Positions 8,824 through 15,700 of a stretch of 64,000 nucleotides of DNA are shown here, piece by piece (the stretch's first letter is position 1; every line of letters begins with the position of its first letter). The DNA is taken from the NCBI RefSeq assembly GCF_009914755.1, contig NC_060933.1; one strand, given 5' to 3'. Origin of the DNA: the human T2T-CHM13v2.0 reference genome, Homo sapiens. The notes beneath the pieces were generated by a model, which was not told where the DNA came from, searched no databases, and saw only the letters and a list, made by a program, of their open reading frames with translations. Made by a program: the position numbers and the translations under genes.

Positions 8824-9725
8824 ATTTTTTTTTACTTAAAAAAAAAATTCAATTGACAAATAATGACTGTGTGTATTTATGGGATACAATGTGATATATT
8901 CATATATGTATAAATTATAGGAAGTCCAACTTATCTATTTTCTTCTGTTGTTGCTTGTGCTTTTGGTGTCATATCTAAGAAAGCTAAAGTCAAGAAGATT
9001 TTTTCCCCTATGCTCTCTTCTAAGAGTTTTATAATTTTATCTATTAAATTTTAGTATATGATATATTTTTGAGGTAACTTTTTGTATAAAATATGAAGAA
9101 AGGGTCCAGTTTCAGTAGTTAGCATGTGACATCCAGTTTTCCCAGCACCATTTGTTGAAAAGACTATTATTTCCATTGAACAGCCTTGGCATTCTGGTTG
9201 AAAATCAACTGACTATTCATGTAAACATTGATTTCTAGACTCTTAGCTGTATCCCATTGGTCTATATGTCTATCCTTATGCCAGTACAAGTCTGTAATTA
9301 TTACCATAGCTTTGTAGTAAATTTTGAAATAGAGAAGTGTGCATACTCCAAATTTGCTCTTCACTTTTGAGATTACTTTGACTATCAGGAGTCCCTTGCA
9401 TTTCCACATGAATTTTTGGATGGGCTTGTCAATTTCCACAGAAAAGGCTGTTGGGATTTCTATAGAGATGTGGTGACTGTATATCAATTTGGAAAGCCAT
9501 CTTAATAATGTCTGTCTCCCAATCTCTGAACATTGGTGTCTTGTCATTTATTTACTCCTTTTTTTTTTTAACCTTCTTTCAAGTATGTTTTGTAGTTTTA
9601 GGGTATAACTTTTGCTCTTTTTGAATAATTAATTTCTAAGCATTTTATTTTTTGATGCGATTATCAATGGAATTGTCTTAATTTGAAGTGTTCATTGCTA
9701 GAGTACAGAAATACAATTTTTTTTT

Positions 9726-10059
9726 AATTTAAAGGAGTTTAATTGAACAACAAACAGTTCAAGAATCGGGCAGCCTTCCCAGGCAGAGTAGGCTTGGACA
9801 CTCCAGCGCAGTCACGCGGTGGAAGGTTTATGGACAGAAAATGGAAGTGAGGTACAGAAACAGCTGGATTTGGCTACAGCTTGGCATTTGCCTTATCTGA
9901 ACATGGTTTGAACAGTTGGCTACATTTGATTGGCCAAAACTCAGTGATTGGCACAAGTGTAGTCTGTTTACACCTCCACTTGTCACAATATACAGACAAA
10001 CTTTTAGGCCAAACTTAAATATATAAGGAGGCAACTTTAGGCTAAACTTGATTTCAACA
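9726..10059 (-). mobile_element. MER57 LTR truncated at its poly(A) site
   Basis: Reverse complement begins TGTTGAAATCAAGTTTAGCCTAAAG and ends CAATTAAACTCCTTTAAATT followed by an A-run; terminal U5 absent. Confidence 0.85.
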
Positions 10060-10325
10060 CCTGTATTCCAACACTTTGGGAGGCCGAGGCAGGAGGATCA
10101 CTTGAGCCTAGAAGTTAGAGGTCAGCCCAAGCAACATAGTGAGACCTTGTCTCTGCGAAAACAAATTAGCCAGGCATGGTAGCATGTACCTGTAGTCCCA
10201 GCTTATCAGGAGACTGAGGCCAGAGGATCATTTGAGCCCAGGAGTTCAAGGTTGTAGTGAGCTACAAGTGCGCCACTGCACTCCTGGGCAACAGAGCAAG
10301 ACCCTAGCTCAAAAAGAAAAAAATA
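10058..10325 (+). mobile_element. AluJ missing its first ~20 nt
   Basis: AluJ diagnostics (ggaggatcacttgagccc); starts at cacctgta directly against the MER57. Confidence 0.9.
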
Positions 10326-10476
10326 ATGACATAAGCAATTATGTGGAAATAAGGTCATACCTGTCAAAGTAATCAGCTGAAAGCAGTTGCCTCTGAGGTG
10401 CAGGAAAGGGGGAAAGTGGAGATAAGGGAACTACTTTTCTTTAAAAGAAAAAAAAAAGACAAAACTAACACTTCAA

Positions 10477-10767
10477 GCCAGGCAAAGTGGCTCACACCTG
10501 TAATCCCAGCACTTTGGGAGGCCAAAGCGGGTGGATCACCTGAGGACAGGGGTTCGAGACCAGCTTGACTAACATGGTGAAACCCTGTCTCTACTAAAAA
10601 TACAAAAATTAGCTGGGCACGATGGCGGGCGCCTGTAATCACACCTACTCGGGTGGCTGAGGCAGGAGAATTGCTTGAACCTGGGAGACAGAGGATGCAG
10701 TGAGCCAAGATTGCACCATTGCATTCCAGCCTGGGTGACACAGCGAGACTCTGTCTCAAAAAAAAAA
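10477..10767 (+). mobile_element. AluS
   Basis: Full dimer; TSD aaaactaacacttca. Confidence 0.95.
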
Positions 10768-10949
10768 AAAACTAACACTTCATTACCTCTGAATGGACAT
10801 TAAAAAATGTTTTAATAAATAAAAAAAGATTTAATACTTCAAATTATGGGCACACAAAACTTTGATAAAAATAAAAACAAATTTAGAAATCTATTATTAA
10901 TAGGACAGCATGTTGAGAGACTTTAAAGGAGTTTTTTAAAGTATTTTTA

Positions 10950-12507: not shown

Positions 12508-13569
12508 TAATAGTGGCAGGAGTCAGACAAGCCCCTAGGCAGATAGTGGCATGTCCCCAATGAAATCCAACTTTCAAACCAAAGGCAGTTTAAAGCCCGA
12601 AAGCTAAGCTACAAGTCTTGTATAAATCCATGGACCGAGCTGAGAACATCTCTTCCTGTTGGTGCACTTTCCTCTGACTGATCCCCACCCTTCACTTACT
12701 TTACATATATCTACCCTTCCCTAAGTGGTTTTCTGCACTGTCATGCCACCTTTGAATGGTTCCTTTGTTTTAGCCTTTTTTGCATACTCGTAAACCAATC
12801 AGCATGCAGTCCCCACTTCTGAGCCCATAAAAGCCCCGGACCCAGCCACGCTGGGAGAGAGACCACCGGACTTCAGGTCAGGGACCACCCTCGCATCCCC
12901 TCTCCGCTGAGAGCTGTTTCATTGCTTCATAAAACTCTTCTCCACCCTTTTCACCCTTCCATTGTCAGCAAAGGGTACGAAGAAGGCAGTAACACCATAG
13001 CCCTCCACCCCTCCCCCACTATCTGTGCCCAGTGGCAGACCCTTGCCATGAGAGGCAGTGCAGGGCCAGGCCAGCCAGGGAGCCTCTGGTAGGAGCAGGC
13101 AACAGGACTGACAGAGTTGTTAACACACCCCCCATTCATTGTTAACATGCCCCTGTTTGTCAGGCTGCTGACCGTGGGACTAAAAGAGCTGTTAGCATGG
13201 CTGTAACATCCCCTCTGGGGCTTCAGAGTCGAGTGCTTTCCTGTTTGGGCACCACCAAGTTCCCTTCATCTGCATGCCAGAGTTCACCCCTGGAGTCACT
13301 TCCGACAGGCCTGATCCAGCTGCAGGCCCCAAAGGGAGCCTGCTCTTGTGCCAGCACTTGGAGTTGCTGGCAAGATGAGGCACTCACTTGATCACACACA
13401 CCCTCCTACTGGGGCTGAGCATGCAGTCTCAGTGGCTGCAGGATCCCCACCAGAGTGCAAGCCCAAGTGGGCAGGGCACCTCCTGCCTGGGGCAGAGCTA
13501 GGCATGGGCAGGGGCATCACCAGCCAGAAGTCTGCAGTTGGAAAAGTGTCCGAGAAAATTCCTGCGTCA
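12508..13569 (+). mobile_element. ERV1 solo LTR of the LTR27/LTR28/MER52 group
   Basis: Starts t(a)atagtggcaggag, ends aaattcctgcgtca; perfect 4-bp TSD CTTT. Confidence 0.8.
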
Positions 13570-13671
13570 CTTTGGAAGCAGTCTTCCTATCCTAGAATGC
13601 CAGAGGGCAAGCATCTGAAAGATCTGGAAGGATGAGGCAGCAAAGGCCAAGATGTGAATGTACACTGCCCC

Positions 13672-14289
13672 TGTCAGAGGTGATCGAACGAGAGCGATTC
13701 CATCTTGAATAGGGGCTGGGTAAAATAAGGCTGAGACCTGCGAGGCTGCATTCCCACTAGCTTAGGCATTCTAAGTCAGGATGAGATAGAAAGTCCGCAC
13801 AAGATACAGGTCACAAAGACCTTGCTGATAAAACAGGATGCAGTAAAGGAGCCAGCCAAAACCAAGATGGTGACGAAAGTGACCTCTGGTCATCCTCACT
13901 GCTCATTATATGCTAATTATAATGCATTTCCATGCTAAATGACACTCCTGCCAGTGCCAGGACAGTCTACAAATGCCATGGCAACATCAGGAAGTTACCC
14001 TATAGGGTCTAAAAAGGGTAGGAACCCTCAGTTGCAGGAATTGCCCACCCCTTTCCCGGAAAACTCATGAATAATCCACCCTTTGTTTAGCATATGATCA
14101 AGAAATAACTGTAAGTATAGTCAGTCGAGCAGCTCATGCCGCTGCTCTGCCTATGGAGTAAACATTCTTTCATTCCTTTACTTTCTTAATAAGCTTGCTT
14201 TCACTTTATGGACTTGCCCCAAATTCCTTCTTGCAGGAGGTCCAAGAACCCTCTCTTGGGGTCTGGATAGGGACCCTTTTCCAGTAACA
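13672..14289 (+). mobile_element. MER41 (MER41B-like) solo LTR
   Basis: tgtcagagg...ccatcttgaataggggctgggtaaaat...ccagtaaca; TSD about (c/t)ccc. Confidence 0.9.
14053..14061. promoter_or_regulatory. GAS (STAT) motif TTCCCGGAA in MER41
   Basis: Perfect TTCNNNGAA; the tandem upstream site at 14032-14040 reads TTGCAGGAA (degenerate). Confidence 0.6.
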
Positions 14290-14859
14290 TCCCCATCACA
14301 GCCCTAATCACTAGGGGACCCTCTAGGCTCTTCCTGCCCTCCCCAGACTGTCTCCCTTAAACATGCTGGATGCAGGGGTGCATCAGTGACTCTGCTGGTG
14401 CCTCCAGGAAAATAAAGTGTGGACCTCTGTGGACAAGAAACAACCCAAAGTAAAGACGACTCCTCACAGGCAGGATGGATATCCACTTGTATGTATGTCG
14501 GTGTGCTGGGGCCCGGAGGCTCCTAATAACAATGTTACCGCTGCTTCACGTGGAAGAAAGCTGAGGCTCAGAGAGATTAAGGAACTTGTCCAGGGCCATA
14601 CCGGAGTCCAGGCCCGTGTGCTGTCATGGTCTGAGGTTTGGACTCCAACCGTTTAAGGAGCTGGGATAGAACTGGGGAGGGAGTGTGGTGGGTGGGAACA
14701 GCGGGCAGATAGATGCTGGCTGGTCTCCAAGGGGCCTAAGTTCTGCCAGAGGGACAACAGGTGAGGAAAACAGGCCTCGGGGTGGATGAGTGAATCTTCA
14801 GAGGATAGACGCAGACCCGGAGGGCCGTGAAAGGTGACAGGGTTATTACAGTCTTGGTT

Positions 14860-15466
14860 GCATAAGGGGGTAACTAGCGGTTTCTCGGCTGAAAAAGAGG
14901 AGGGGGGCTAGAGCTTCCCCCCTCCAACCGCGGAGCACGCAGCCGCTCAGCAGGCTGCCACACAGGGTCCCCCACCTCCGCAGCTGGGGGACCTGAACTC
15001 GCCAATAGGAGGTTCCTCCTGCACGCGCGGCTTCACCCTCCCTCCAGGGCTCCCGTTGCATTTCACTCCCTGCCTAAGGTCGCCCGCCGGTGAGGGCGGA
15101 GGAGGAAGAACTGCAGCTCCTGAGGACAGAATCTGCTTCAAGGCACCCTGACCGGCGCCCAACCCCACCCCGGCTGCGGCCCGCCGCCCTGATCCCCATC
15201 GCGCTGCACGGTCTTCCCTTCCAACACCGAGGGCGCTGCAAGGACGCCCTGTCCCTGCCACTCATTCATATTAATGACTCCTCCCCCCATGCTTTCCTCA
15301 GGTGAGTTCCGACCGCTCTGCCCGAAACATTTTCATCCCACACTCTTACGGCCACCTCTCCCCAAGTTCCCTTCCGTCTGGGCAAATCTTGTCCTTTACC
15401 CGGCACTGGGGTCGCTCCAGAGCTTTCAAACCAGCTTCCCCAGGGCGCTGTGCAGGGCCGGGCCCC
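14860..15466. promoter_or_regulatory. CpG island / promoter-like region
   Basis: GC- and CpG-rich against an AT-rich background; CCAAT at 15002; GC boxes; donor-like sites on + (15090, 15302) and on - (15399). Confidence 0.75.
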
Positions 15467-15700
15467 TACAATTTTTGTATATTGATCTTGTACCTTGCCG
15501 TCAGGCTGAACTTGTTTATTAGTTCCAATAATTTTTTTTAGTGGCATTGTTGGGGTTTTCTATATAAAGGTAATGTCATCTGCAAGTAGAGCTAATTTTA
15601 CCTCTTCCTTTCCAATCTGAATGCCTTTACTTTATTCTTCGTTTAATTATCTTATCTTGGCTAGAACCTCCAATACAATGGTAAATAAAAGAGGTAAATG
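15467..15700 (-). mobile_element. Old L1 fragment, right half of the split L1
   Basis: tacaatttttgtatattgatcttgta...tgtcatctgcaa...cttcctttccaat...ctagaacctccaatac is the L1 ORF2 antisense sequence that follows the 9721 break. Confidence 0.85.

What the first reader, a model, noticed from the sequence alone, without database searches (positions are those of the whole stretch)
9712..15476. Hidden 5.75-kb retrocopy of an unspliced non-coding RNA that carried a whole CpG-island promoter into an L1
Seen: an old minus-strand L1 stops at ...gagtacagaaaTACAATTTTT (9721) and resumes in register at TACAATTTTTgtatattgatcttg (15467). This gives a 10-bp TSD at a TTTTT/G, L1-endonuclease-like site. Read on the minus strand, the insert starts inside the CpG island and ends in a MER57 LTR that stops about 13 nt after its ATTAAA and runs into As instead of U5. 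The insert also holds MIR, MLT1 and L1MC relics, which are probably too old to have each jumped into this L1. Established: L1 TPRT gives a TSD plus poly(A), and LTRs donate poly(A) sites. Inference: the block was copied from another locus as a polyadenylated, unspliced RNA. With no ORF, it would escape standard pseudogene pipelines and be annotated only as scattered repeats plus an orphan CpG island. Caveat: the surviving A-tail is short (9 T including the TSD).
Basis: partly seen in the sequence, partly recalled or inferred. Interest (0 to 1): 0.85.

Follow-up and report, generated by a model that had tools for sequence, protein, structure and literature searches.

The report
Retrocopy of an unspliced chr2 RNA
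A 5.7-kb stretch inside an old L1 element on chromosome 9 is an RNA-mediated copy of an unspliced, non-coding transcript from chromosome 2 next to KRCC1, a real but fairly ordinary kind of event that also moved most of a CpG island.

Summary
TACAATTTTT occurs only twice in the window, at 9712-9721 and 15467-15476, and brackets the block.

One locus outside chr9 matches it. C2:88028346-88034116 aligns with window 15467..9726 in a single colinear HSP, 94.2% over 5796 columns, and the flanks share only Alus.

At chr2 the CpG island runs on about 200 bp upstream. Downstream, the LTR continues about 28 nt to its natural ...TATCA end. The window copy leaves the LTR 12-15 nt after ATTAAA and runs into As plus the duplicated target.

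The interrupted L1 is continuous across the site in 5 of 8 other L1 copies. No intron was removed, and the longest sense ORF is 85 aa.

So chr2 is the source, and this is an L1-mediated retrocopy about 4.6% diverged. Segmental duplication later made four chr9 copies.

"Whole CpG-island promoter" is overstated: about 655 bp of the island came along, and the upstream part did not. The copied island has kept its CpGs better than the rest of the insert.

This is a new member of a known kind, of moderate interest.

The parts
9712..9721 (.). Target-site duplication, copy next to the A-tail (TACAATTTTT on +; AAAAATTGTA in the sense of the insert)
   Evidence: identical in 3 of the 4 chr9 copies, one base changed in the fourth
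9722..9725 (-). Remnant of the poly(A) tail (4 As beyond the duplicated target; the whole A-run is 9 here and 12 in two sister copies)
9726..15466 (-). Templated body of the retrocopy, colinear with C2:88028346-88034116. No intron-sized gap; the largest deletion against the source is 25 bp
9726..10058 (-). LTR-type repeat that supplied the poly(A) signal (ATTAAA). It is cut 12-15 nt after the hexamer and lacks the last ~28 nt that the chr2 source and 8 other genomic copies all have. The 5' limit is approximate
10060..10335 (+). Old Alu, antisense to the retrocopied RNA and present at the chr2 source too, so already in the RNA. Limits approximate, read by eye
10486..10775 (+). Second Alu, antisense to the RNA and also present at the chr2 source
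14812..15466 (-). Transcribed part of the chr2 CpG island carried into chr9 (655 bp, GC 0.63, 39 CpG, o/e 0.62; source 44 CpG, o/e 0.70)
15296..15307 (+). Consensus-like 5' splice site CAG|GTGAGT (GT at 15302-15303), antisense to the retrocopied RNA. It is conserved at chr2 on the minus strand at C2:88028513. It may be the end of exon 1 of a minus-strand gene whose start would lie inside the copied island (inference only)
15467..15476 (.). Target-site duplication, copy at the 5' end of the insert
9167..9721 (-). Host L1, downstream half (ORF2p residues 803-926 at 9547-9170)
15467..15700 (-). Host L1, upstream half. It matches other L1 copies directly 5' of the left half. The outer limit is approximate

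Best explanation
An RNA polymerase II transcript about 5.77 kb long was made from the + strand of chr2 at C2:88028346-88034119 (T2T coordinates). It started inside a CpG island and was never spliced. It was cleaved and polyadenylated at the poly(A) site of an LTR, and it had no ORF longer than 85 aa. Its 3' end lies about 5 kb from the coding exon of KRCC1, which runs the other way. The L1 machinery captured this RNA in trans. ORF2p nicked the + strand of an old L1 on chr9 at TTTTT/GT, and the T-run primed on the poly(A) tail. The whole RNA was reverse-transcribed. A second nick 10 bp away produced the TACAATTTTT duplication. Segmental duplication of the chr9 pericentromeric region later made four copies, and the window holds the most diverged one. 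Shown here: the source locus, the exact limits of homology, the target duplication, the A-run, the truncated LTR, the continuity of the host L1, the absence of splicing and the four-fold duplication. Inferred: that the 5' end is the true transcription start rather than a truncation point, that L1 was the enzyme, and the date.
For: Source locus. Window 14300-15466 has only 5 full-length matches in the assembly, four on chr9 (98-100%) and one on chr2 (94%). Window 15467..9726 (minus) equals C2:88028346..88034116 (plus) in one HSP, 94.22% over 5796 columns. The flanks share only Alus.

Boundaries. Upstream of the match, chr2 continues as CpG-rich DNA (o/e 0.91 in the 200 bp before it). Downstream, chr2 continues with about 28 nt of LTR, where the window has As plus the target duplication. 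A repeat family covers C2:88033788-88034144 (4718 first-look candidates, 40 scored), and all four chr9 copies stop 25 bp short of its end. In alignment A1, the source and 8 of 8 other copies run on to ...TATCA/TAACA before diverging, and only the window copy leaves after AAATT.

Target site. The 10-bp duplication occurs only at the two junctions. The host L1 is continuous across the site in 5 of 8 bridging copies and is L1 ORF2 by protein match.

Single insertion. All four chr9 copies share the same junctions.

No splicing, no coding. The largest deletion against the source is 25 bp and the longest sense ATG-ORF is 85 aa. No Rfam family matches.

Divergence. K2P distance from source to copies is 0.046-0.047.
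Against: The surviving A-tail is very short, at 4-7 A beyond the As of the duplication. The nick site TTTTT/G is a variant of the L1 consensus TTTT/A; that consensus is recalled, not tested. In 3 of 8 bridging L1 copies no match to the right flank was found. The 31-aa translation of the right flank found nothing in the PDB. No expression data for the chr2 locus could be consulted, so the transcript is known only from its retrocopy. No outgroup genome could be checked for the empty site, and no empty-site paralogue exists in the human assembly (only the 4 chr9 copies at 97% or more, everything else 79% or less).
Confidence: 0.93

Rival explanations
1. DNA-level transfer: a 5.8-kb piece of chr2p11.2 was inserted into chr9 by segmental duplication or double-strand-break repair, with no RNA intermediate.
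For: The chr9 pericentromere is full of segmental duplications, and this very block was duplicated four-fold at the DNA level afterwards. The copy contains no sign of splicing. The A-tail is short.
Against: The limits of homology coincide with a start inside a CpG island and with a cleavage point 12-15 nt after a poly(A) hexamer inside an LTR. That point is followed by an A-run absent from the source, and the whole block is bracketed by a perfect 10-bp duplication at a T-rich nick site. A DNA breakpoint would have no reason to fall there.
Confidence: 0.03
2. The copy is a 5'-truncated retrocopy of a longer RNA (a read-through or a transcript that starts further upstream), so the start inside the CpG island is a truncation point and not a transcription start.
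For: L1-mediated copies are often 5'-truncated (established knowledge). No extra untemplated G can be shown at the 5' end, because source and copy both read GGG there. No expression data are available.
Against: The 5' end falls about 200 bp inside the upstream edge of the only CpG island within about 38 kb on either side (island C2:88028101-88029000). This is where a start is expected. A random stop of reverse transcription would land there only rarely.
Confidence: 0.1
3. Direction reversed, or both derived: the chr9 block is the original and chr2 the copy, or both are retrocopies of a lost third locus.
For: None beyond the symmetry of a pairwise match.
Against: The chr2 copy has no A-run and no target duplication. 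Its LTR runs to the family's natural end, and its island continues upstream. The chr9 copy interrupts an L1 that is otherwise continuous. No third locus exists in the assembly.
Confidence: 0.01

Closest known systems
L1-mediated processed pseudogenes / gene retrocopies (target-primed reverse transcription in trans)
   Same: It has a target-site duplication (10 bp), a T-rich nick site and an A-run at the 3' end directly after a poly(A)-signal-defined cleavage point. Homology to the parent is limited to the transcribed unit, and the upstream promoter DNA was not copied.
   Different: The parent is non-coding and the RNA was unspliced, so the usual hallmark (loss of introns) and the usual way of detection (similarity to a protein or spliced mRNA) do not apply. 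At 5.7 kb it is, from recall, long for a retrocopy. RefSeq lists nothing at this place (hub annotation given with the finding).
Intron-retaining ('semi-processed') retrocopies, such as the rodent preproinsulin I gene (recalled, no call)
   Same: The retrocopy is of an RNA that still holds sequence colinear with the genome.
   Different: Here nothing at all was removed. The transcript appears mono-exonic rather than partly spliced.
LTR-terminated host transcripts (solo LTRs that donate poly(A) sites)
   Same: The source RNA ended at the ATTAAA of an LTR, at the point where the family's last ~28 nt (U5) begin.
   Different: The usage is recorded only by a fossil retrocopy.
Retrogenes that carried or acquired CpG-island promoters (reviews seen as search listings and abstracts only: PMC5470649, PMC5408686)
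   Same: Part of the parental CpG island lies downstream of the start and so travels with the RNA.
   Different: No evidence here that the copied island drives transcription. There is only indirect evidence that it resisted CpG decay.

Membership tests
L1-mediated retrocopy (TPRT in trans) | Flanking target-site duplication of about 7-20 bp | tested here: met
   Perfect 10-bp TACAATTTTT at 9712-9721 and 15467-15476, the only two occurrences in the window; the same in the sister copies
L1-mediated retrocopy (TPRT in trans) | 3' poly(A) not encoded at the parent locus, following a poly(A)-signal-defined end | tested here: met
   A-run of 9-12 where chr2 reads TAATTTGG..., 12-15 nt after ATTAAA. 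It is short: 4-7 A beyond the duplicated As
L1-mediated retrocopy (TPRT in trans) | Insertion at an L1-endonuclease-type site (TTTT/A-like) | tested here: inconclusive
   The inferred nick is TTTTT/GT on the + strand. The T-run fits, but the base after the nick is G, not A. The consensus is recalled, not computed
L1-mediated retrocopy (TPRT in trans) | A parent locus elsewhere, with homology confined to one transcription unit | tested here: met
   C2:88028346-88034116, one HSP, flanks unrelated except Alus
L1-mediated retrocopy (TPRT in trans) | Introns of the parent missing | tested here: not met
   Colinear with the genome; the largest deletion is 25 bp in an Alu T-run. This defines 'processed' copies, not the mechanism. 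The RNA was unspliced
Segmental duplication (chr9 copies among themselves) | High identity that runs on through the insert and its flanks alike | tested here: met
   Left flank 97% and insert 98% in C9:39.6M, 41.07M and 78.5M, with the same junctions
Segmental duplication (chr2 to chr9) | Homology with arbitrary end points, no A-tail and no target duplication | tested here: not met
   The ends fall inside a CpG island and at a poly(A) site, with an A-run and a duplication
Retroviral LTR (reader: MER57) | Dispersed repeat with a fixed end in ...CA and an internal poly(A) signal before a short U5 | tested here: met
   4718 first-look candidates. Most of the scored full-length rows end at query 491-496. 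The chr2 source and 8 of 8 other copies end in ...TCA/ACA and then diverge. The name MER57 and the 5' TG end were not tested
CpG island (Gardiner-Garden and Frommer criteria, recalled: at least 200 bp, GC at least 0.5, o/e at least 0.6) | Length, GC and observed/expected CpG | tested here: met
   Window 14812-15466: 655 bp, GC 0.631, o/e 0.62. The sister copies give 0.57-0.59 and the source 0.70

The most novel reading that the evidence does not exclude
The roughly 655-bp island fragment that rode along with the RNA has stayed a germline-hypomethylated, autonomous CpG island at its new chr9 sites for some 20 million years. It may still act as a promoter there, in the antisense (window +) direction. 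It contains a conserved CAG|GTGAGT donor that at chr2 would end exon 1 of a minus-strand KRCC1-like gene. If so, one retrotransposition plus segmental duplication seeded four new orphan promoters in the chr9 pericentromere. It would also be a natural experiment showing that the unmethylated state of an island is encoded in its own sequence.
Probability: 0.3. Interest if true: 0.55.

Novelty: new member of a known kind. Interest (0 to 1): 0.4.

Why it matters
It shows that long, unspliced, non-coding transcripts were also substrates of L1 in the ape germline. It also shows that such copies are invisible to pseudogene pipelines, which look for lost introns or protein similarity. The copy is a roughly 20-million-year-old record of both ends of a chr2 transcript: a start in a CpG island and an end at an LTR poly(A) site. 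It is also a natural transplant of most of a CpG island into foreign, repeat-rich DNA, where its CpGs decayed more slowly than those of the rest of the insert. None of this changes how retrotransposition is understood.

Tried and rejected
Notes of earlier readers were not open.

I used stop-free ORFs instead. The 31-aa right-flank piece was too short to find L1 ORF2p.

Pfam found no family for the two ORFs next to the source.

Eight short pieces were fetched instead.

Rfam found no family in 9000-16200.

Literature:
- One search gave general retrocopy reviews (listing and abstracts seen only).
- One search found no occurrence of the phrases 'lncRNA retrocopies', 'retrocopies of lncRNA' or 'retrotransposed lncRNA'. 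Nearly all of its 47 hits came from 'semiprocessed' in its food sense.
- Search 42 and a passage of PMC10742694 gave a gene list of 2p11.2 with no named gene for the source.

A broad blastn of the chr2 region against itself was swamped by Alus and its output was cut, so I drew nothing from it for the main claim.

The repeat names MER57, MIR, MLT1 and L1MC could not be tested, because no repeat library is available.

Rejected readings: DNA-level transfer, reversed direction, and an LTR-integrase event (only one LTR, which is truncated at its poly(A) site).
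Full report
**1. The observation**

On the + strand the window reads ...cagaaaTACAATTTTT (9712-9721), then four more Ts (9722-9725), then aatttaaaggag.... 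At the other end it reads ...gggcccc (15466) followed by TACAATTTTT (15467-15476) and gtatattgatc. The 10-mer occurs twice in the 64-kb window, only at these two places. Dinucleotide shuffles expect 0.46, and 5 of 100 shuffles reach two matches anywhere.

The DNA left of the block encodes L1 ORF2p on the minus strand: window 9547-9170 matches residues 803-926 of 8sxt_A with E 3e-19. To test whether the two L1 halves belong together, I searched the assembly with the left flank and fetched eight other L1 copies that match it, each with about 500 bases beyond. I then aligned both flanks to them.

- In 5 of 8 copies the right flank matches directly after the left one, with offsets from 0 (L036) to 18 bp (L033).
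- In 3 of 8 copies no right-flank match appeared.

The host L1 is about 70% identical to these copies, so it is old.

**2. The source locus**

The assembly that holds the window can be searched. Window 14300-15466 has five full-length matches: itself, three more on chr9 at 98%, and one on chr2 at 94%. All other hits are fragments under 60 bases.

Aligning window 7000-18000 with 20 kb of chr2 gives one HSP. Window 15467..9726 (minus strand) equals C2:88028346..88034116 (plus strand), 94.22% over 5796 columns. Everything else shared is Alu. The match is colinear and includes the two Alus inside the block. The largest deletion in the window copy against chr2 is 25 bp, inside an Alu T-run. Nothing was spliced out.

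**3. The ends**

At the 5' end, chr2 continues upstream as CpG-rich DNA. The 200 bp before the match have GC 0.52 and o/e 0.91, and the island as called spans C2:88028101-88029000. The window has L1 plus the duplicated target there instead.

At the 3' end both sequences read ...CAATTAAACTCCTTTAAATT. Chr2 then goes on for about 28 nt to ...TTTTATCA, whereas the window has an A-run and the duplicated target.

The last 357 bp at chr2 belong to a dispersed repeat. It has 4718 first-look candidates, of which 40 were scored, and most full-length rows end at query position 491-496. All four chr9 copies stop at 470. I aligned the ends of the chr2 source, the window copy and eight other genomic copies. 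The source and 8 of 8 others run on to ...TCA/ACA and only then diverge into unique DNA. The window copy alone leaves the family 12-15 nt after the ATTAAA.

This is the anatomy of an LTR whose own poly(A) site was used. The missing piece is its U5.

**4. Direction and mechanism**

Chr2 has no A-run and no duplication, and its LTR and island are whole. Chr9 interrupts an otherwise continuous L1 and has a duplication and an A-run. So chr2 is the parent and chr9 the copy.

On the + strand, the T-run of the target ends at the nick TTTTT/GT and continues into the complement of the A-tail. This is what target-primed reverse transcription by L1 ORF2p produces. The consensus TTTT/A is recalled and was not computed here, and the G after the nick is a departure from it.

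The tail is short. The A-run is 9 in the window, 12 in two sister copies, and T plus 11 As in the third. Five of these As belong to the duplicated target.

**5. The RNA**

The longest ATG-ORF on the sense strand is 85 aa in the source and 86 aa in the copy. No Rfam family reaches its threshold in 9000-16200. One AATAAA and five ATTAAA hexamers lie upstream of the one that was used.

The source lies between two minus-strand ORFs.

- A 259-aa ORF lies at C2:88039083-88039862. The ESM Atlas holds it letter for letter, in a cluster named Lysine-rich coiled-coil protein 1, that is KRCC1.
- A 249-aa ORF lies at C2:88014586-88015335. It is 32% identical to the first (E 4e-28) and scores 0.92 to the same cluster.

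Pfam names neither ORF. I could not name the source transcript. A gene list of 2p11.2 in PMC10742694 (one passage seen) names no gene for it.

**6. History**

All four chr9 copies have the same junctions, and their flanks are 97% identical. That means one insertion followed by segmental duplication.

K2P distances:

| Comparison | All sites | Non-CpG sites |
|---|---|---|
| Source vs copies | 0.046-0.047 | 0.032-0.035 |
| Window copy vs the other three | 0.018-0.020 | not quoted |
| The other three among themselves | 0.009-0.011 | not quoted |

From recalled calibrations, human-orangutan divergence is about 3.4% and human-macaque about 6.5%. That puts the insertion near the base of the apes, roughly 15-25 million years ago. 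This date is an inference. Pericentromeric rates and gene conversion could shift it.

No empty-site paralogue exists in the human assembly.

**7. The CpG island**

The copy carries the first ~655 bp of the RNA, which are island: GC 0.63, 39 CpG, o/e 0.62. The source has 44 CpG and o/e 0.70, and the sister copies give 0.57-0.59. The ~200 bp of island upstream of the start did not come along, so "whole promoter" is too strong.

Island CpGs survived better than CpGs in the rest of the insert.

| Measure | Island part | Rest of insert | Test |
|---|---|---|---|
| CpGs: shared / source-only / copy-only | 35 / 8 / 4 | 32 / 32 / 27 | Fisher p = 1.4e-5 |
| Non-CpG divergence | 4.3% | 3.5% | |
| Source CpGs still present in the window copy | 35 of 43 | 32 of 64 | p = 0.0011 |
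| Losses since the chr9 duplications, polarised with chr2 | 9 of 140 cells (4 of TG/CA type) | 26 of 160 cells (23 of TG/CA type) | p = 0.011 all, p = 0.0004 TG/CA |
| Same losses counted by site | 7 of 35 | 15 of 40 | p = 0.13 |

The cells are not independent, because the copies share ancestry. The numbers are small, and GC-rich DNA may deaminate more slowly for other reasons. I read this as moderate evidence that the transplanted island stayed at least partly unmethylated in the germline.

**8. A lead, not a result**

Antisense to the RNA, the copied island holds a consensus-like donor CAG|GTGAGT. Its GT is at window 15302-15303 on the + strand, which corresponds to C2:88028513 on the minus strand. 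Both KRCC1 and the 249-aa paralogue ORF have a pyrimidine tract and a CAG about 20 nt before the ATG.

The island may therefore be the promoter and first exon of a minus-strand KRCC1-like gene. In that case the retrocopy did carry a promoter, but an antisense one. No expression data were available to test this.

**9. Comparison with what is known**

The event works as an L1-mediated retrocopy and meets the defining features tested: duplication, A-run, parent locus, and homology confined to one transcription unit. It fails only "introns missing", which defines processed copies rather than the mechanism. The nick motif is inconclusive.

Retrocopies with retained introns, and LTR-donated poly(A) sites, are established (recalled). 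Reviews on retrocopies were seen only as listings and abstracts. Three exact phrases for lncRNA retrocopies gave no occurrence in the library. This shows only that those wordings are unused, not that such copies are undescribed. RefSeq lists nothing at the site (hub annotation).

**10. Verdict**

This is a new member of a known kind, of moderate interest. It is a long, unspliced, non-coding retrocopy that standard pipelines would miss. It preserves both ends of an old transcript and transplanted most of a CpG island.

Noticed in passing
L019:2586-3335 (C2:88014586-88015335, minus strand): An intact 249-aa ORF is 32% identical to KRCC1 (E 4e-28). It lies 13 kb from the source CpG island and has a pyrimidine tract plus CAG acceptor about 20 nt before its ATG, as KRCC1 has. 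The ESM Atlas does not hold it letter for letter. It may be an unannotated or little-known KRCC1 paralogue whose first exon lies in the island that gave rise to the retrocopied RNA.
   Followed up: partly
L026/L027 (C9:39.6 Mb copy), at source position about 4568: One of the four chr9 copies carries an extra 332-bp insertion absent from the other three and from chr2. By its length it is probably a young Alu that arrived after the segmental duplications.
   Followed up: no
L011 (C2:88028290-88028345): Just upstream of the start of the retrocopied RNA, chr2 has an ATTTGCAT octamer and a GC-box-like GGGAGGCGTGGCC within about 60 bp. Both motifs are recognised from memory only. They were not copied to chr9.
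   Followed up: no
L011/L012 (C2:88029531-88030144 against C2:88038217-88037685): A roughly 600-bp non-Alu stretch inside the source body matches, in inverted orientation at 69-80%, a stretch just downstream of the KRCC1 coding exon. It is probably two copies of one old repeat family.
   Followed up: no
window 8536-8824 and 7000-7257: Alus sit in the host L1 flank outside the insert. They show that the L1 was hit repeatedly, but they are not part of the retrocopy.
   Followed up: no
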